Source: a virus
Lineage: Duplodnaviria; Caudoviricetes
Virus record (IMG/VR): IMGVR_UViG_3300046710_000261
Span: 1 to 64,000 of that record
Reading direction: 5' to 3' (one strand)
DNA: 64,000 nucleotides
The position numbers and the translations under genes were made by a program. Under the pieces are notes generated by a model, which was not told the origin of the DNA, made no database searches, and saw only the letters and a list, made by a program, of their open reading frames with translations. Below, piece by piece: positions 8,352-14,897 of the stretch (position 1 is its first letter; every line of letters begins with the position of its first letter).

Positions 8352-8654
8352 CTATAAAATAAATCTATAAAATGGATAAGAAATGCGAGAACCGTTCAAA
8401 TAATAAGCGCGAACACGATAATGAATAATTGTATCGTGAGCATGTAATAAATCTAACCAATATTCTGCCAATGAAAGGTCTTGATTGTCTGCAATGATTT
8501 TACCAATATAATCCACTCCCATAGTGATGCAAGGAAATGAGGGATCAGTTTTATCCACCGTTTGATCATAAAGTATACATTGTCCTACTTGCAGAATGTT
8601 TCCTGCATTGAATAATATTTTCTTTGAAATATTTCCTATTATATCATCAAACAT
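8352..8654 (-). CDS. hypothetical protein with MFDD(L/I) N-terminus
   Basis: MFDDIIGNI; TAATG overlap. Confidence 0.6.
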   Translation of the reverse strand: MFDDIIGNISKKILFNAGNILQVGQCILYDQTVDKTDPSFPCITMGVDYIGKIIADNQDLSLAEYWLDLLHAHDTIIHYRVRAYYLNGSRISYPFYRFIL

Positions 8655-8860
8655 TAGAACCCCTGCTTTCTCAAATCCTCATCAATTTTATGTCTCATCT
8701 TTTTTATTCTTTCCATTTCATTATTTTCTGCTATATCTTCTATCATTTCTTCAAAGGAAGAGAAATCACCATTTGATTGAAACATCTTAAACATTCTTTG
8801 CAATAGTTCATCTATATCTATATCTTTATTGTCTACACCATAAATTATATCATCAAACAT
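8654..8860 (-). CDS. acidic microprotein with MFDD(L/I) N-terminus
   Basis: MFDDIIYG; GGAG SD. Confidence 0.65.
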   Translation of the reverse strand: MFDDIIYGVDNKDIDIDELLQRMFKMFQSNGDFSSFEEMIEDIAENNEMERIKKMRHKIDEDLRKQGF

Positions 8861-8872
8861 TTTTATTCTCCC

Positions 8873-9073
8873 TTATCTTTCGTATTCGGGTTCTCCAAAG
8901 TCTTCGGCTGCTTTTTTCTTTATTTCTTCTAGTATTTCTTCATCAATCTCTTTTTCTATATCATCAGCAAGAGATTTATATGTCCTTTGCCCCCAAATTA
9001 TAACATCTTCTGGAATTATGATTTCCTTATTCTCCGTTTTTTTCTCTGGTATTAAATCACTGAAGTCTTCCAT
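8873..9073 (-). CDS. microprotein with gp23-like helix
   Basis: LADDIEKEIDEEILEEI resembles the T4-type MCP L..EI..EI[DN]REI helix; AGGAG SD. Confidence 0.55.
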   Translation of the reverse strand: MEDFSDLIPEKKTENKEIIIPEDVIIWGQRTYKSLADDIEKEIDEEILEEIKKKAAEDFGEPEYER

Positions 9074-9215
9074 CACCAAAATCTCCTACTTTTATTTTCC
9101 ATTCATCATCTTTTATTTTTCTAAATTGTTCTTTCAGTTTTTCCACAAAATTCTTTGCTTCCTTCGCTGACATATTTCCAACATCAATCGTGAAGACCCT
9201 TTTCCCTTTTTCCAT
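9057..9215 (-). CDS. 52-aa microprotein resembling a T4 gp20 portal fragment (not in ORF track)
   Basis: MEKGKRVFTIDVGNMSAKEAKNFVEKLKEQFRK...; TAATG overlap with upstream FkbM gene. Confidence 0.7.
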   Translation of the reverse strand: MEKGKRVFTIDVGNMSAKEAKNFVEKLKEQFRKIKDDEWKIKVGDFGDGRLQ

Positions 9216-10114
9216 TATTCCCTCTCTAACATTATACTACGCACTACTTTTGGTGATATACCACCAGCATATTTTTGTGGTATACTTGTTGATGCCCATG
9301 TTATAGCATCTTCTATTTTTATATTTATATACAGCCCCCTATTGGATGAAAAGGTCTTCTCTGGCTTATATCCAGCATCCTTAAACACTTTTGGTTGCTG
9401 GACGGCTGCACTACATACATATTTTATTTTGAAGCCAAGGCCAATCATCTTCCATAATTGTTTTGCCAAACTTCTCTCTTCTGTATAATATTTAGGATGA
9501 ACTTCCATGAGTATCTTGCAGGGGAAACTCAATTCAAATAGTTTCATTCCACCTTCCAAAACATCTACTTCAGCCCCCTCAATATCCATTTTGATAAAAT
9601 TGGGATTAGGAAATCCCCTTTCGCATATAAAATCCCAAAGAGTTTCTACATGGACATTAATCATATCTGTCATTTTATCTGTATTGGTAAAACCATTCAA
9701 ATTAGTGGCACGAGACAGATAAAATGATTGTTGGCCTGTATAACCACCGATTGCTAAATTATATGGATAAATACGAGCTTCAAAATGATTTTCTTTTATT
9801 GCCTTTATCAATAATTGATAATTTCGGGGGTCAGGCTCAATGGATAATATAGTGCCGTGCCCACCTATTGATGATATAATATCAGCCGCCGTCAATGTAT
9901 TATAACCTATATTCGCTCCTAAATCAATAATGACACCATTGATGGGCAATTCCTTTCGGAATATATACATAAATTCAGGTTCTCTTATATCTGCTGTTGC
10001 ATTTTGAGGCCACGATATAAATTCCCTGTGGATACCATCACCCTTTTTCCAAATGGCAAATTTGATGCCTTGGATTTCTTTTATCAGAATATCCTTCTCT
10101 GGTATATTATTCAT
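9215..10114 (-). CDS. FkbM-family methyltransferase
   Basis: IDLGANIGY, IEPDPRN, FIKMDIEGAE. Confidence 0.9.
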   Translation of the reverse strand: MNNIPEKDILIKEIQGIKFAIWKKGDGIHREFISWPQNATADIREPEFMYIFRKELPINGVIIDLGANIGYNTLTAADIISSIGGHGTILSIEPDPRNYQLLIKAIKENHFEARIYPYNLAIGGYTGQQSFYLSRATNLNGFTNTDKMTDMINVHVETLWDFICERGFPNPNFIKMDIEGAEVDVLEGGMKLFELSFPCKILMEVHPKYYTEERSLAKQLWKMIGLGFKIKYVCSAAVQQPKVFKDAGYKPEKTFSSNRGLYINIKIEDAITWASTSIPQKYAGGISPKVVRSIMLERE

Positions 10115-10514
10115 CGTCTAATCCAAAATCTTTAAAATTTAATTCTCTGGTCACGAGCAATAACCAATCTATTTGTTCTGGTTGTAATGTCCTGTCGTCC
10201 ACCATAAAATCATATAAAGGTTTGCCCAATGATAGGCCATGAAATTTACATCCCCATTCATTCAGTTGATCGTATGTTATTTTGAACCAATCCTTTCCTG
10301 TTGTTGATCCTCGCGCTGTATAATAATGAATATAGTGCCCCATATCATAGAGATGATTTACTTTGCTTATCATCTCACTTATAGGAACAGATTCTTCATA
10401 ATCTTTCCCCTCTGGCCTATTGCATATCGTCCCATCAATATCAAAATACAAAGTCATTTGTCTGAATATCTTTTTCTTATTTTTTACTTTCCATTCATTG
10501 TAGTCAGTTATCAT
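10107..10514 (-). CDS. HAD-superfamily capsule-biosynthesis phosphatase
   Basis: FDIDGTI, YTARG, GKP..D..VDD. Confidence 0.85.
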   Translation of the reverse strand: MITDYNEWKVKNKKKIFRQMTLYFDIDGTICNRPEGKDYEESVPISEMISKVNHLYDMGHYIHYYTARGSTTGKDWFKITYDQLNEWGCKFHGLSLGKPLYDFMVDDRTLQPEQIDWLLLVTRELNFKDFGLDDE

Positions 10515-10770
10515 TAATTTATCTCCGATACATCATCGTGTAGCCATAATATTTGATAATCATGAATATCTGGATTATCTGCAAAATCTTCTCGCTCCAT
10601 GACACTAACTAATTCTCCTTCCTTGTCTTGATACTTGTGAACAAGATACCAATGATCTTCATATTTGAGTGCTACACCTTCATTCATTCGTAAAAGCATA
10701 TGGAGTGCTTTTGCAAATAATGAACATCTAATTTCCGCATCGTCTAATATTTTCATTATATTTCTTCCTT

Positions 10771-11073
10771 CTATATATCAATATTATATTTCTTCTTTAC
10801 ATAATCCCTAACATACATATCAGCAATTCCTTCTTCGGTCAGTGGATAATTTATTCGTATATATTCTTCCCTTTTTGGTGGTTTTGGTTTTTCTTTTATT
10901 ACTGGCTTAAAATATCCCCACATCACCCCTAAATTCAAAAGGCTCCTCAAATCTTTTCGTGCGTCATTGACTTCTTGTGCTTTTCTTCCAGCATCGGCTA
11001 ATTTAGGATTTATATCAGGATGAACCTTTTTTATCAAAATTTTATAAATCTCTTCAGGGTCAAGGGTTTTCAT
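10771..11073 (-). CDS. J-domain (DnaJ-like) protein
   Basis: YKILIKKVHPD ... QEVNDA. Confidence 0.65.
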   Translation of the reverse strand: MKTLDPEEIYKILIKKVHPDINPKLADAGRKAQEVNDARKDLRSLLNLGVMWGYFKPVIKEKPKPPKREEYIRINYPLTEEGIADMYVRDYVKKKYNIDI

Positions 11074-11898
11074 TTATCGTCTCAATTTCTTTTTGATGGG
11101 AATTTCACCTGGAAACACAGCCCACAAACCATTACCCATTCCTTCTTCAATACTGCGAATATATTTACCAAGTCTGATTATACCTTCAGGCTCAATACTT
11201 GATGCCTGATCACTACCGTATATTGACCTATCTAAAGTCACATGGAGTTCGATCATCTCTGCTCCCAATGCTCCTGCAACAGCACAAAACATAATACCTG
11301 GATTATGGTTGCTGAATCCAATTTTATATTTTCTATACTCTTCTTTCAATGTCTTGATGAAATTCATATTCATTTCTATTGTTGGGGTTGGATATGTGCT
11401 GGTACAGGCAAGGATATATTCTATTTGATCACCAAGATAGATAACACAATTATCAACCTCTTTCTTGGTTGACATGCCCGTGGATATAATAACAGGTTTT
11501 CCTGTTTGTTTTATTGCTTCAAGCAATTTCATATCTGTAATAAGCGGGGAAGGGATTTTGATAAAAGGTATATCATATTTTGCTAGAAATTCTACTGACC
11601 ACGGCCCCCATACACTGGCGAACCATTGTATCCCATATCCTATACAATAATCATCAATCTCATCATACTCCAATTCACCAAATTCCAAACCCTGTTTTTG
11701 ATCACCGAATGTTTTACCCCACGGTGATTCTCTTGGAGCAACCAATTCACAATCTGAATATGTCTCTTCGATCATTCTCTTCTGAAACTTTACATATTGA
11801 AATCCTGCAAATGAAGCAATGCTGATAAGTTTCTTGGCTATATTCAAATCACCATTATGGTTTATACCTATTTCTGCAACAAGTTTTATGTCGTTCAT
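11074..11898 (-). CDS. neuB: NeuB-family nonulosonic acid synthase (no SAF domain)
   Basis: AEIGINHNG, VKFQKR, STGMS, CTSTYP, GSDQASSIEP. Confidence 0.9.
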   Translation of the reverse strand: MNDIKLVAEIGINHNGDLNIAKKLISIASFAGFQYVKFQKRMIEETYSDCELVAPRESPWGKTFGDQKQGLEFGELEYDEIDDYCIGYGIQWFASVWGPWSVEFLAKYDIPFIKIPSPLITDMKLLEAIKQTGKPVIISTGMSTKKEVDNCVIYLGDQIEYILACTSTYPTPTIEMNMNFIKTLKEEYRKYKIGFSNHNPGIMFCAVAGALGAEMIELHVTLDRSIYGSDQASSIEPEGIIRLGKYIRSIEEGMGNGLWAVFPGEIPIKKKLRR

Positions 11899-13025
11899 TT
11901 CTTCTCCATATACTTCTTTACTATCTTCACAACCTTCTCTCTATCCTTCTCTGATATTTCAGGATATGATGGAAGCATAAAGCATTCCTTGCTTAACAAT
12001 TCTGCTATGTCTGTCTTGGTATTCATGCCGATATATTTTTGAAGATATTTGTGGTGAGTAATAGGATAAAATATAGGTCGGGTCTCCACACCGCCATCAT
12101 TGAAAAATTGTTCCACCTGCTCATAATTCTTATTGCCTGGAACCCTGATTGCAAACATCCAGTTAGAGTTATCGCATTTATCGTCTATTTCCTGACACCT
12201 TATTCTGCCATTGTCAATGTATTCTGCTAATTCAGTAACATAATACTTATACAATTTTATCTTCTTGGTCATAATAACTTTGGCGCATTGTAACTGGCCT
12301 AAAAGCAATCCCGCTTGCACGTTTGTCATTCGATAATTGTACCCCATATAGTCGTGGACATATCTCTTTTTGGCCTGACCTTGATTGTGTAGAATATTAA
12401 TATAAGCATATAATTCATTATCGTCAGTAATAAATGCCCCGCCTTCACCTGCCGTAAGTGTTTTATTTCCAAAGAATGATAATCCAGCACATAATGATTT
12501 TGTTCCTGTGTATTCACCTTCATGCACCCCGAACAATCCTTCACAATTATCTTCCACTATAACCATATTCGGCCTCTTTCTTTTGAGCAGGGGAATGTTT
12601 ACTATGGAACTCACATTATGGACAACCAATAATGCCCAGTGGTCTATGTTCAACTTATAATTGGATATGAACAAATCAAATTCATTATAATCCATCTGCC
12701 ATGTGTTTATGTCTGCATCAAAAGGCAATAGATAATAAAAATCTTTATCATAAAGAAATGGATTATATGCTCCTACATATACATTATTAGGGCAGACGAT
12801 ACCTTTTATATTTGGATGTTTGTATTGCAGGGCTTTTGCTACAAGATGCATTGCGGTAGTTCCACTTGAAGTAAGCAGGACATGTTTATATCCAAACATT
12901 TCTCGCAATCTCTTTTCTGCTATCTCAATATATATTCCTTTGCTGCTTACCCATCCCGAAGATAAAGCATCACGGGCGAATTTCAATGAAAGTGTTGTAA
13001 TAAACGGTTTGTATATTGGCACCAT
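11895..13025 (-). CDS. DegT/DnrJ/EryC1 aminotransferase (perosamine synthase-like)
   Basis: SGWVSSKG, SSGTTA, VEDNCE, SFFGNKTLTAGEGG, GYNYRMTN. Confidence 0.9.
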   Translation of the reverse strand: MVPIYKPFITTLSLKFARDALSSGWVSSKGIYIEIAEKRLREMFGYKHVLLTSSGTTAMHLVAKALQYKHPNIKGIVCPNNVYVGAYNPFLYDKDFYYLLPFDADINTWQMDYNEFDLFISNYKLNIDHWALLVVHNVSSIVNIPLLKRKRPNMVIVEDNCEGLFGVHEGEYTGTKSLCAGLSFFGNKTLTAGEGGAFITDDNELYAYINILHNQGQAKKRYVHDYMGYNYRMTNVQAGLLLGQLQCAKVIMTKKIKLYKYYVTELAEYIDNGRIRCQEIDDKCDNSNWMFAIRVPGNKNYEQVEQFFNDGGVETRPIFYPITHHKYLQKYIGMNTKTDIAELLSKECFMLPSYPEISEKDREKVVKIVKKYMEKK

Positions 13026-13028
13026 ATT

Positions 13029-14897
13029 TCACCTCTTCAATGATCTTAATTTTGCAAGAAAGAATTTTGCAGTTTGGGTCACGAATTGACCATCTTTATC
13101 ATATGTTTCACCATACAAATAAGTTTCAACGTTTCTTAATTTTCCCCCATCACCCTTCAATACAATTGTATTGCCCACGGCCATTGCCAAACAAAAATTC
13201 CCTGCATCACCGATTGCAATGGTTGCCTTGGCTTTTCGCATTATGGAACAATCATTCTTTATCTGTGTGAGGCTGGGTGATTGTATTTTATTTAGGGGAA
13301 GTGTTCTATCATCAAATATCTTTATGTTTTTGCTTAAAATATCATATAGGCATTTATATTTTTCTGTGGGAACGGGCAATCTTTTTTCCCCCATTAAAAT
13401 TATCTTATATTGTGCAGACAGATCATTGATTATTTGAAAAAAGGTTGTTGATATTTTATGAAATTCATCAATAACATTTTTCTGCCTTGCTTTCGTTGTT
13501 ATCACTATATAGTCGCCTTCAGGTACAGGAACATTATCATCACACAAATATTTTTCCAGGTGTGGTGTGGCTGGTGTCAATCCATCATTATCCATGAATG
13601 TCAATACAGTTCTTTGCGGATAGGTCTGATCTTCTGTTATGACATAAGGATCACCTTGATATAGCAGGGTCATATAATCCAACATAAATCTTTTTCTATT
13701 TTCATATTCTGATCCTGCGTTTCCTTTCATCCATTCCAAATTGGGCGATAGATATATTTTATCAAATTCATTCTTGTGAAAATCCAATTGAGCCTTGACA
13801 TATATATGATCACCAATGCCTGTGTTTATTTTTCCTTTGAGAATGCGATTGCCTGTTTTGGATATAGGATCAATATTGATTTGGGGAATTTCAATGCTCT
13901 TTGCTATTTGAACAAATTTGTTTATGTCCTCTGTTACAAGATTGCTATTATCACCAAACATTTTTGTGGTGAAATCCACTTTCTCTCTTGGATAAAAATC
14001 CTTGATCATATTTTTATCCCGTAAAGCAAGAGGGATGCCGACAGCATTTGCTATAACCCAATTACCACCGATGCCCACACAAAATATTCTTTCGGCTCTA
14101 TTCATTATGGTGCAGTCTTCTCTGAATTTTTTTATATTGGGACTTTTGAAACCCAATTTATCATAAGTCAAATCTATAATCCTATCTTTCGGGATGCTGG
14201 AAACAATATCTTTATATATGGAATATATCGCGTTCCCTGGCTGAATTGAATATTCTTTATTCATTTCTATTTCTTTTTCACCCATCAAAACTATCTTGTA
14301 TTTCTCACTTAATTCTTTCCATAGAATTTTTAATGCTTTATTATATTCATCATAAAGTGATTTCCTATATGATCTGACCTTCGTGGTAATAATAACAAAT
14401 TTACCATCTATCTGTATGGGCATTTCTTGATTGCATAGCAATCTGGCGAATACATTTTTGGTTGGTGTTACGGCAGGTAAACCATCATCCAAATCAAGAT
14501 GTGTATAATCTTTTTTTGGATATGATTGATCATCCGTTATAATATAAGGTGGTTCACTAAAAAGTGCTTTCATCAACTCTCTTACAAATTCTTTATATCC
14601 ACTATCATCATTGCGAAATTTCTTTACCAAATCCCAATTGGGTGATATATATATTTTATCAAATCTTCCTTTGACTGCGTCTAATTGGGCCTTGATTATA
14701 AGAATTGATCCTATACCTAAATTTATACAGGCTTGTAGTATTCTGCCATTAATAGCAGGGGGAAAGGGGGGTGGTTCTCTATGCATCTTGGGAACAAGAT
14801 TTAATGGTGGCCTTATTGTTGGTTTTTGTGGTATAGGTGTTGCCTTTTTGGGATTATGTCTAAGATTATATACAGGAGGATTTACAGGTTTTCCCAT
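13029..14897 (-). CDS. internally duplicated GT9-like glycosyltransferase with Pro-rich N-terminus
   Basis: Two repeats beginning RIL...GIG(S/D)...KAQLD...FDKIY.SPN; AKATIAIGDAG. Confidence 0.55.
   Translation of the reverse strand: MGKPVNPPVYNLRHNPKKATPIPQKPTIRPPLNLVPKMHREPPPFPPAINGRILQACINLGIGSILIIKAQLDAVKGRFDKIYISPNWDLVKKFRNDDSGYKEFVRELMKALFSEPPYIITDDQSYPKKDYTHLDLDDGLPAVTPTKNVFARLLCNQEMPIQIDGKFVIITTKVRSYRKSLYDEYNKALKILWKELSEKYKIVLMGEKEIEMNKEYSIQPGNAIYSIYKDIVSSIPKDRIIDLTYDKLGFKSPNIKKFREDCTIMNRAERIFCVGIGGNWVIANAVGIPLALRDKNMIKDFYPREKVDFTTKMFGDNSNLVTEDINKFVQIAKSIEIPQINIDPISKTGNRILKGKINTGIGDHIYVKAQLDFHKNEFDKIYLSPNLEWMKGNAGSEYENRKRFMLDYMTLLYQGDPYVITEDQTYPQRTVLTFMDNDGLTPATPHLEKYLCDDNVPVPEGDYIVITTKARQKNVIDEFHKISTTFFQIINDLSAQYKIILMGEKRLPVPTEKYKCLYDILSKNIKIFDDRTLPLNKIQSPSLTQIKNDCSIMRKAKATIAIGDAGNFCLAMAVGNTIVLKGDGGKLRNVETYLYGETYDKDGQFVTQTAKFFLAKLRSLKR

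What the first reader, a model, noticed from the sequence alone, without database searches (positions are those of the whole stretch)
9057..9215. Stand-alone 52-aa microprotein copying the most conserved motif of the T4-type portal protein
Seen in sequence: an ORF missed by the track, MEKGKRVFTIDVGNMSAKEAKNFVEKLKEQFRKIK..., TAATG-coupled to the upstream gene. Established: T4-superfamily gp20 portals contain RR[VI][FW]Y[IV]D[VT]GN[ML]P..KA..Y...[VI]M, in the terminase-facing clip region as I recall. Some bacterial immune receptors (Avs) detect portal proteins. Inference: this is a portal-fragment mimic acting as an immune decoy, a packaging regulator or an inhibitor of competing phages.
Basis: partly seen in the sequence, partly recalled or inferred. 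Interest (0 to 1): 0.8.

Follow-up and report, generated by a model that had tools for sequence, protein, structure and literature searches.

The report
Stand-alone portal clip-tip mini-gene
A T4-like environmental phage carries an intact 52-codon gene that copies only the exposed tip of the portal protein, where the DNA-packaging motor docks; it belongs to a scattered, undescribed family of such mini-genes and probably makes a soluble mimic of that site, though its target is untested.

Summary
Window 9057-9215 (-) is an intact 52-aa ORF with a Shine-Dalgarno site, TAATG coupling to the upstream FkbM methyltransferase and a 17-nt overlap with the next gene. Residues 5-33 match Pfam Portal_T4 above its curated cut-off. 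They align to T4 gp20 residues 279-309: the first clip strand, the G-N-M tip and helix alpha6. That tip contacts terminase gp17, and a gp20 288-311 peptide binds gp17 and blocks packaging in vitro (PMC4493910).

It is not an isolated remnant. A related phage keeps an orthologue whose motif core shows 3 synonymous and 1 non-synonymous change, while the rest of the gene diverges. About 90 other small proteins (34-109 aa) keep the same strand-tip-helix with non-portal flanks: single, tandem, membrane-tailed and "mini-clip" forms. I found none beside the portal in cultured phage records, and no paper describing them.

The contig (about 70% complete) lacks portal, terminase and capsid genes, so the phage's own portal could not be compared. 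Its relatives have T4-type portal and terminase.

Best reading is a clip mimic that competes for a clip partner: terminase first (0.35), a neighbouring portal subunit second (0.25). An immune decoy remains possible. Function is untested. This scan has flagged similar portal-clip mini-genes in four other genomes.

The parts
9057..9215 (-). 52-aa microprotein gene (P0001): a portal clip-tip copy
   Evidence: ORF listing and sequence. Called as a gene on three other contigs of the same phage. Portal_T4 match above the curated cut-off.
9117..9203 (-). Residues 5-33: first clip strand, G-N-M tip and start of helix alpha6, equivalent to T4 gp20 residues about 281-309
   Evidence: Pfam and PHROG matches. 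PDB profile match to gp20 279-309. Alignment to portal clip segments.
9081..9167 (-). Residues 17-45: predicted amphipathic helix (alpha6 equivalent, extended)
   Evidence: AlphaFold2 with a 79-sequence alignment: helix 17-45, pLDDT about 92 for residues 11-30. The 13-sequence run gave helix 17-36.
9060..9095 (-). C-terminal tail (residues 41-52). It has a D-D-E-W-K-I-K-V stretch that aligns loosely with the portal's second clip strand (E-D-Y-W-L-P type). Low model confidence.
   Evidence: MAFFT alignment with portal clips and mini-clip relatives. pLDDT 45-51. The W-x-I-x-[VI] pattern is shared with orthologue P0122.
9219..9226 (-). Shine-Dalgarno-like GAGAGGGA, 3 nt upstream of the ATG, inside the 3' end of the methyltransferase gene
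   Evidence: Read from the sequence. Kept as GAGAGAGA in the related contig L173.
9215..10114 (-). Upstream gene: FkbM-family methyltransferase, stop overlapping the microprotein start (context, not part of the mimic)
   Evidence: PF05050 E=2.7e-18, phrog_8156.
8873..9073 (-). Downstream gene: acidic 66-aa protein whose start overlaps the microprotein's last 17 nt (context)
   Evidence: Its protein is identical in L173 apart from one extra N-terminal residue in the L173 gene call; DNA from its ATG onward is 98.9% identical.

Best explanation
The ORF is a translated accessory gene. Its product is a soluble mimic of one element of the T4-type portal clip domain: the first clip strand, the exposed G-N-M turn and helix alpha6. 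On its own it is an extended strand packed beside one amphipathic helix, so it acts as a ligand rather than as an enzyme or a ring. I propose that it occupies the surface on the large terminase (gp17-type TerL) that normally docks onto the portal clip. That would delay, tune or block motor-portal docking and DNA packaging, either in its own infection or in a co-infecting T4-like phage. Shown: the homology, gene integrity, protein-level conservation of the motif and the existence of a wider family. Taken from the T4 literature: the clip tip contacts gp17, and the corresponding peptide binds gp17 and inhibits packaging. Inferred: that this protein binds TerL, and what the phage gains from it.
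For: The homology is to gp20 279-309, which includes tip residues N291 and M292 (kept as N14 and M15) and R295 (kept as K18). In T4, N291A-M292A and R295A-K296A abolish packaging, M292I is cold-sensitive for packaging initiation, and a 24-residue peptide (gp20 288-311) binds gp17 and inhibits packaging (PMC4493910). The microprotein spans that whole peptide. The gene looks expressed: SD site, TAATG coupling and a tight operon. Against orthologue P0122 in L173, the motif core (codons 7-20) has 3 synonymous and 1 non-synonymous change, while the other 17 of the first 31 codons have 2 synonymous and 8 non-synonymous changes and the tail is unalignable. About 90 small non-portal proteins keep the motif, with F 97%, D 98%, V 95%, G 96% and M/L 92% at the core positions, in varied architectures. 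Relatives of this phage carry gp17-type TerL and T4-type portals, so the presumed partner exists in the lineage. A small protein that binds TerL and blocks packaging has a natural precedent in PLE Gpi.
Against: There is no binding or phenotype data. The contig holds neither TerL nor portal, so co-variation with the phage's own proteins is untested. T4 K296 is E in this protein, and most family members have D where portals have N291, so the gp17-contact surface is not copied exactly. The best-conserved part of the family is the strand, which lies mostly outside the 288-311 peptide and in portals forms the inter-subunit sheet. That fits a portal-directed action at least as well. A broad-spectrum docking inhibitor would also hit the phage's own packaging unless it is timed or titrated. 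The gene is absent from the nearest sizeable relatives (G001, G003/L007), so it is dispensable.
Confidence: 0.35

Rival explanations
1. Portal-directed mimic. The copied strand inserts into the two-stranded clip hairpin of a portal monomer, in place of the strand the neighbouring subunit would donate. This caps monomers, either to chaperone or tether them before ring assembly, or to poison the ring assembly of a competitor. The same clip element could instead compete for the C-terminal arm of the gp13-type neck adaptor.
For: [quoted passage not shown] It is the only main-chain to main-chain inter-subunit contact and a major part of the assembly energy (PMC4493910). The strand residues are the most conserved part of the microprotein family. 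AlphaFold leaves the strand unpaired in the monomer. Some family members carry hydrophobic membrane-type tails (P0005-P0008, P0014, P0065, P0085), and T4 proheads assemble on the inner membrane and the clip only becomes accessible after release (PMC9958956). gp13 docks on the clip.
Against: I could not inspect coordinates to establish which of the three strands is donated in trans. There is no experimental precedent for a clip peptide affecting ring assembly. The window protein has no membrane tail. It keeps the exposed G-N-M tip, which strand complementation alone would not need.
Confidence: 0.25
2. Anti-defence decoy or shield. The mini-clip binds a portal-sensing STAND receptor (Avs4 or Avs11) without allowing activation, or it covers the epitope on portal or terminase monomers that Avs proteins recognise.
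For: Avs4 and Avs11 sense portal, and Avs1-3 sense TerL; Avs2 and Avs4 recognise the monomers. The gene is an accessory gene at a mosaic junction, typical of counter-defence genes: 98.9% identical DNA downstream and about 85% upstream in L173. The family is sporadic among relatives.
Against: Avs sensors are described as wrapping the whole core fold through extended shape-complementary interfaces, not short motifs. A 30-residue strand-helix is therefore a poor decoy and could just as well trigger the sensor. No Avs-clip contact data were found. Nothing in the sequence points to a receptor.
Confidence: 0.15
3. Non-functional by-product. A piece of a portal gene was copied to an ectopic site during recombination or repair, perhaps seeded by intein or homing-endonuclease cleavage next to the motif. 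It remains open by chance.
For: In the portal clade closest to the microprotein, an intein with a LAGLIDADG endonuclease ends at H-N | S/T, five residues before the motif (L097, L102). That makes this site a break-and-repair hot spot. The gene sits at a mosaic junction and is missing from close relatives.
Against: The gene has an intact start, an SD site and translational coupling on both sides. The motif is preserved through synonymous changes in the orthologue. About 90 independent small proteins keep the motif at 92-98% per core position while their flanks vary freely. They also share their own signature that differs from portals: K at 283, D at 291, S/T at 293. That means long evolution under their own constraint. 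A sub-group holds a conserved position in the replication module of T4-like phages. No intein or endonuclease remnant lies next to the ORF.
Confidence: 0.1

Closest known systems
Clip domain of the T4-type portal protein gp20 (Pfam PF07230; PDB 3JA7, 6UZC; residues 279-358)
   Same: It has the same strand, G-N-M turn and alpha6 helix sequence element. The profile match is above the Pfam cut-off, and N291, M292 and a basic residue at 295 are kept.
   Different: Only about 30 of the roughly 520 residues are present. There is no wing, stem, crown or tunnel loop, so it cannot form a portal ring. It is encoded in an accessory-gene operon rather than the head module, and the internal clip loop (T4 about 311-330) is missing.
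Synthetic gp20 288-311 peptide that binds gp17 and inhibits T4 DNA packaging in vitro (cited in PMC4493910)
   Same: The microprotein contains the full equivalent of that 24-residue segment (D11 to about K34), as a free soluble polypeptide.
   Different: It is natural and genome-encoded, it carries the preceding strand and a tail, it has E in place of K296, and its activity is untested.
Unnamed PHROG families phrog_23805 and phrog_12349 (unknown function), plus about 90 metagenomic small proteins found here
   Same: They share the same motif followed by an amphipathic helix in proteins of 34-109 aa with non-portal flanks. P0122 is a positional orthologue, and P0100 shares the Q-F-R-K-I-K helix end.
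   Different: The window protein matches the two PHROGs only weakly (E=0.029 and 0.0044). It keeps N at the tip where most members have D. By sequence it is closer to one portal clade (57% over 30 residues) than to other microproteins (47% or less).
PLE Gpi, a satellite-encoded protein that binds phage ICP1 TerL and blocks packaging (bioRxiv 10.1101/2024.04.22.590561)
   Same: It has the proposed mode of action: a small accessory protein that targets the large terminase.
   Different: No sequence comparison with Gpi was made. Gpi is satellite-encoded and is not described as a portal mimic, whereas this gene is phage-encoded and derived from the portal.
Eukaryotic microProteins (small single-domain paralogues that titrate the partners of their parent protein; from my own knowledge, not checked here)
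   Same: The logic is the same: a short copy of one interaction element of a larger protein, likely acting by competition.
   Different: The biology differs (a virus assembly machine), and there is no evidence yet of dominant-negative action.

Membership tests
T4-type portal protein (Pfam PF07230 Portal_T4) | Profile match above the curated gathering score | tested here: met
   24.3 bits against a cut-off of 22.9, E=1.6e-5, but covering only HMM positions 206-234 of 433.
T4-type portal protein (Pfam PF07230 Portal_T4) | Full portal architecture (wing, stem, clip, crown; about 500 aa or more) able to form the dodecameric ring | tested here: not met
   The protein is 52 aa. All 66 confirmed IMG/VR motif hits are portal-size reading frames, 520-1262 aa where the gene is whole. 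The AlphaFold model is one strand-like segment plus one helix. It is therefore not a portal.
T4-type portal protein (Pfam PF07230 Portal_T4) | Position in the head/packaging module next to terminase, tail tube and prohead genes | tested here: not met
   It lies between a methyltransferase and small acidic ORFs in a NeuB / aminotransferase / HAD operon. No TerL or gp23 is on the contig.
Stand-alone portal-clip microproteins (unnamed; includes phrog_23805 and phrog_12349) | Motif R-[KR]-[VI]-F-[YT]-[VI]-D-V-G-[DN]-M-[SPT] followed by an amphipathic helix, in a protein under about 110 aa with flanks unrelated to portals | tested here: met
   Alignments A2 and A4 and the position table. The window protein has every core residue, with T at the Y/T position.
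Stand-alone portal-clip microproteins (unnamed; includes phrog_23805 and phrog_12349) | Significant match to the PHROG profiles themselves | tested here: inconclusive
   E=0.029 (phrog_23805) and 0.0044 (phrog_12349) for the window protein. Relatives P0002, P0088, P0093 and P0026 reach 1e-6 to 1e-7.
gp17-binding clip peptide (functional class: terminase-docking competitor) | Contains the equivalent of gp20 288-311 with tip residues N291 and M292 | tested here: met
   D11-V-G-N14-M15 aligns to D288-T-G-N291-M292, K18 aligns to R295, and E19 replaces K296.
gp17-binding clip peptide (functional class: terminase-docking competitor) | Binds the large terminase and inhibits packaging | not testable with these tools
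   No complex prediction or assay is available here, and the phage's own TerL is not on the contig.
Avs decoy / anti-defence protein | Interaction with a portal- or terminase-sensing STAND receptor | not tested
   Only literature context was gathered. PADLOC and other defence libraries are not relevant to a phage microprotein.
Intein / homing-endonuclease remnant | Hint/intein or endonuclease domain in or next to the ORF | tested here: not met
   No such Pfam or PHROG hit was found in the ORF or in the five neighbouring genes scanned. Inteins are present only in related full-length portals.

The most novel reading that the evidence does not exclude
T4-like phages in nature carry a widespread, unrecognised family of portal clip mimic microproteins: single, tandem, membrane-anchored and mini-clip forms. 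They act as natural competitive ligands at the portal vertex, blocking or timing terminase docking or portal ring assembly, and are used in phage-phage competition or to hide packaging proteins from pattern-recognition immunity.
Probability: 0.35. Interest if true: 0.85.

Novelty: new variant of a known kind. Interest (0 to 1): 0.66.

Why it matters
Motor-portal docking is the least understood contact of the best-studied viral packaging machine. Until now it has been probed only with mutants and one synthetic peptide. If phages themselves encode that peptide, there is a natural, diversified library of docking-site ligands. Each variant is in principle matched to a terminase or portal lineage. 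They can be tested directly by binding, in vitro packaging and co-expression with Avs sensors. They would also add a new class to the small accessory proteins phages use against each other or against host immunity. The family seems almost confined to uncultured T4-like phages, which may explain why it has not been described.

Tried and rejected
1. Single-sequence phmmer against PDB found no portal; only the five-unit profile did.
2. The word-index search with the single protein found only itself.
3. Neighbour-anchored synteny, using 80 loci around methyltransferase homologues, showed no copy of the ORF. The closest such locus, L007, has an unrelated acidic 101-aa ORF in its place.
4. Three further contigs carrying the exact protein are 100% identical DNA, so they give no substitution data.
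5. The search for the phage's own portal, TerL and capsid on the 156-kb contig found none. Linking the contig to the L097-type portal contigs by shared genes also failed.
6. The IMG/VR pattern scan for the microprotein-type motif gave one hit only: a 97-aa ORF with a longer portal fragment. P0002 has no IMG/VR relatives.
7. tblastn of two family members against 50,697 phage records hit only one place per record, the portal. My own query gave three extra places, one of them a weak motif in Xanthomonas phage XaC1 gene 382.
8. The Foldseek search of the model was empty, as expected for a strand plus a helix. The ESM Atlas gave only sub-threshold hits.
9. Promoter and terminator scans were at background level.
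The context of P0100 and paired microprotein/portal comparisons in complete genomes were therefore not obtained.
11. Literature searches for a described portal-derived microprotein or decoy found nothing.

Full report
**The object.** Window 9057..9215 on the minus strand is a 52-codon ORF with an ATG start and a TGA stop.
- Its ATG shares one base with the TAA of the upstream 299-aa FkbM-family methyltransferase (9215..10114; PF05050 E=2.7e-18).
- GAGAGGGA lies 3 nt before the start.
- The last 17 nt overlap the start of the next gene, an acidic 66-aa protein.
- The ORF sits in a long, tightly packed minus-strand operon that includes NeuB, a DegT-type aminotransferase, the methyltransferase and a HAD-like protein.
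- Gene callers of public collections called this ORF on three other contigs. Those contigs are 100% identical in DNA over up to 9 kb, so they are the same phage sampled again.

**The resemblance to the portal is real.**
- Residues 5-33 match Pfam Portal_T4 at 24.3 bits (cut-off 22.9, E=1.6e-5), on HMM positions 206-234 of 433. They match PHROG 213 (portal) at E=4.3e-5.
- A profile built from five copies of the motif has T4 gp20 as its top hit in the PDB, residues 279-309, E=2e-4.
- In the T4 structure paper (PMC4493910) the clip domain is residues 279-358: three strands plus helix alpha6. It is exposed outside the capsid and is the attachment site of terminase gp17 and later of neck protein gp13.
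- The same paper reports that tip residues N291, M292, R295 and K296 face gp17. N291A-M292A and R295A-K296A abolish packaging. M292I is cold-sensitive for packaging initiation. A 24-residue peptide, 288-311, binds gp17 and inhibits packaging.
- In the alignment the microprotein's D11-V-G-N14-M15-S-A-K18-E19 corresponds to D288-T-G-N291-M292-P-A-R295-K296.
- The ORF therefore encodes the first clip strand, the exposed tip and alpha6, and it covers the whole inhibitory peptide.

**Predicted shape.** AlphaFold2 gives pLDDT about 92 for residues 11-30. With a 79-sequence alignment it predicts an extended N-terminal segment, a helix from 17 to 45 and a disordered end. With 13 sequences it predicts helix 17-36. 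There is no independent globular fold, and Foldseek finds nothing. This is the shape of a ligand, not of an enzyme or a ring.

**The genome.** The window lies in a 155,948-bp IMG/VR virus record, 35% G+C, linear, and about 70% complete by CheckV.
- It has a T4-type replication module: gp43-like polymerase, gp44-like clamp loader, DnaB-type helicase and ribonucleotide reductase.
- It has no Portal_T4 match other than the microprotein, no Terminase_6N match and no gp23 match. The head and packaging genes therefore sit in the unsampled part.
- Relatives do carry them. G004 (NeuB 62% and methyltransferase 45% identical) and G005 have T4-type portals. G001 (polymerase 56% identical), G004 and G005 have gp17-type terminases.
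- The presumed partners therefore exist in the lineage, but the phage's own portal clip could not be compared with the microprotein.

**Conservation in a close relative.** A full HMMER pass and a profile search found P0122 (62 aa) on the 1.4-kb contig L173.
- The four genes after it are the same four genes as in the window. Three are identical in protein apart from one extra start residue in one gene call, and the fourth differs at two residues. The DNA is 98.9% identical over 1,145 nt.
- The 48 nt before the start are only 85% identical. The microprotein gene thus sits on a mosaic junction.
- Within it, codons 7-20 (the strand and tip) carry 3 synonymous and 1 non-synonymous change.
- The other 17 of the first 31 codons carry 2 synonymous and 8 non-synonymous changes. 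The tail has an indel and is unalignable apart from a W-x-I-x-[VI] pattern.
- The numbers are small, but the pattern is the one expected if the motif is what selection keeps.
- The gene is absent from the nearest larger relatives: L007 has an unrelated acidic ORF at the site, and G001 has no match. It is therefore an accessory gene.

**A wider family.** The profile search returned 183 proteins of 20-111 aa at E<=0.01.
- Of the 120 listed, about 30 are plainly pieces of ordinary portal genes, with portal sequence on both sides of the motif. These are likely frameshifts or truncated calls.
- About 90 have the motif in flanks unrelated to portals.
- The forms seen are:
  - 34-55-aa proteins that are little more than the motif and helix;
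  - forms with a hydrophobic, membrane-type tail (P0005-P0008, P0014, P0065, P0085);
  - tandem doubles (P0002, P0004, P0015, P0026, P0119);
  - "mini-clips" that also keep the portal's second and sometimes third clip strand but lack the loop between (P0088, P0093, and the roughly 104-aa group P0072/P0097/P0105/P0112).
- Across 96 non-redundant units the core is R 89%, F 97%, Y 92%, D 98%, V 95%, G 96% and M/L 92%, followed by a conserved amphipathic pattern.
- The family has its own signature relative to 44 portals: K rather than R at position 283, D rather than N at 291, and S/T rather than P at 293.
- The contexts seen are T4-like phages: next to baseplate and gp15-like genes (P0002), beside ribonucleotide reductase (P0007), and repeatedly in the replication module near the clamp loader and PhoH (P0004, P0026, P0088).
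- Two PHROG families of unknown function (23805, 12349) carry the motif.
- In 50,697 phage records, two family queries hit one place per record, the portal. An IMG/VR scan for the exact microprotein-type motif found one locus. The family is therefore real but rare, and almost absent from cultured phages.
- I found no paper describing it.

**Origin.** The window protein is closer to one portal clade than to other microproteins: 57% over 30 residues to L097 and 53% to L099 and L102, against 47% or less to other microproteins.
- It shares that clade's helix ending Q-F-R-K, which only 5 of the 66 portals have.
- P0100 (58 aa) shares Q-F-R-K-I-K and a remnant of the clade's third strand.
- L097 comes from the same metagenome as the contigs holding the closest methyltransferase (L007) and polymerase (L166) relatives. 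The phage's own portal is therefore probably of this type, and the microprotein was probably derived within this lineage.
- In two portals of that clade (L097 and L102), an intein with a LAGLIDADG endonuclease ends at H-N | S/T, five residues before the motif. That site is therefore subject to repeated cleavage and repair, which could seed ectopic copies. This speaks to how such genes arise, not to whether they are kept.

**Mechanism.** Three kinds of partner meet this element in T4: gp17, the neighbouring portal subunit, and gp13.
[quoted passage not shown] For gp13, its C-terminal arms dock on the clip.
- I commit to terminase as the target (0.35), because the exact peptide is known to bind gp17 and block packaging, and the exposed tip is kept.
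- The portal-directed reading (0.25) is nearly as good. The strand is the best-conserved part of the family, it is unpaired in the monomer model, and the membrane-tailed forms fit assembly of T4-type proheads at the membrane.
- An immune decoy or shield (0.15) remains open, but Avs sensors are reported to envelop whole folds rather than short motifs.
- A neutral remnant (0.10) is hard to reconcile with the family-wide conservation and its own signature.

**Standing within this scan.** Earlier notes report similar portal-clip mini-genes in four other genomes. I reached the same closest-known comparison independently, from the T4 paper, before seeing them. They are not independent evidence.

**Verdict.** This is a new variant of a known kind: a competitive mimic or packaging-interference protein. 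Its function is untested.

Noticed in passing
L097:181-3966 and L102:226-3993 (IMG/VR portals closest to the microprotein): These portals are 1256-1262 aa because they carry intein(s) with LAGLIDADG homing endonucleases. One intein ends at H-N | S/T-R-A-P-E, five residues upstream of the clip motif, and the Portal_T4 HMM resumes at position 201. L097 may hold two inteins.
   Followed up: partly
window 9040-9265 compared with L173:1-260: The microprotein gene lies on a mosaic junction. DNA downstream is 98.9% identical between two phages, the 48 nt upstream are 85% identical, and the gene's 3' half is unalignable with a 30-nt-scale indel.
   Followed up: yes
window 8352-8860 (minus strand) and L007:5204-5452: Two neighbouring small proteins start with M-F-D-D-I-I, and the L007 homologue of the 100-aa one starts the same way. 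This is the N-terminal motif another first-stage note (e1-5782025) flagged.
   Followed up: no
window 9215-14897 (minus strand): An accessory sugar-modification cluster: a HAD-like protein (phrog_1238), an FkbM methyltransferase, NeuB (sialic/nonulosonic acid synthase), a DegT-type aminotransferase and a 622-aa protein with an internal repeat, as judged from its matches in L007.
   Followed up: partly
genome 104.5-112.4 kb (L004:544-8378), outside the window: A run of at least six tandem paralogues of 200-340 aa, all matching phrog_12810, phrog_11975 or phrog_15932 (unknown function).
   Followed up: no
L166 (IMG/VR 3300032053_000177): The polymerase match spans 3,639 nt against 2,718 nt in this genome, which suggests an insertion (possibly an intein) in the relative's DNA polymerase.
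   Followed up: no
L180:182-475 (IMG/VR 3300013094_000036): A 97-aa ORF that keeps a longer piece of portal (HMM 154-225: the end of the stem helix plus the clip start) stands alone just upstream of a 178-aa gene I did not annotate.
   Followed up: partly
L170:2228-2824 (Xanthomonas phage XaC1 gene 382): A 198-aa hypothetical protein of a cultured jumbo phage, between an exonuclease and ribonucleotide reductase, has a weak copy of the motif (T-I-D-V-G-E-L-S plus helix). It is the only candidate seen in a cultured phage.
   Followed up: partly
genome as a whole (G000) and relative G001: The 156-kb contig lacks portal, terminase and capsid genes. The 189-kb relative G001 lacks the portal and has its terminase about 10 kb from the contig end. 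Assemblies of this lineage may break near the head module.
   Followed up: partly
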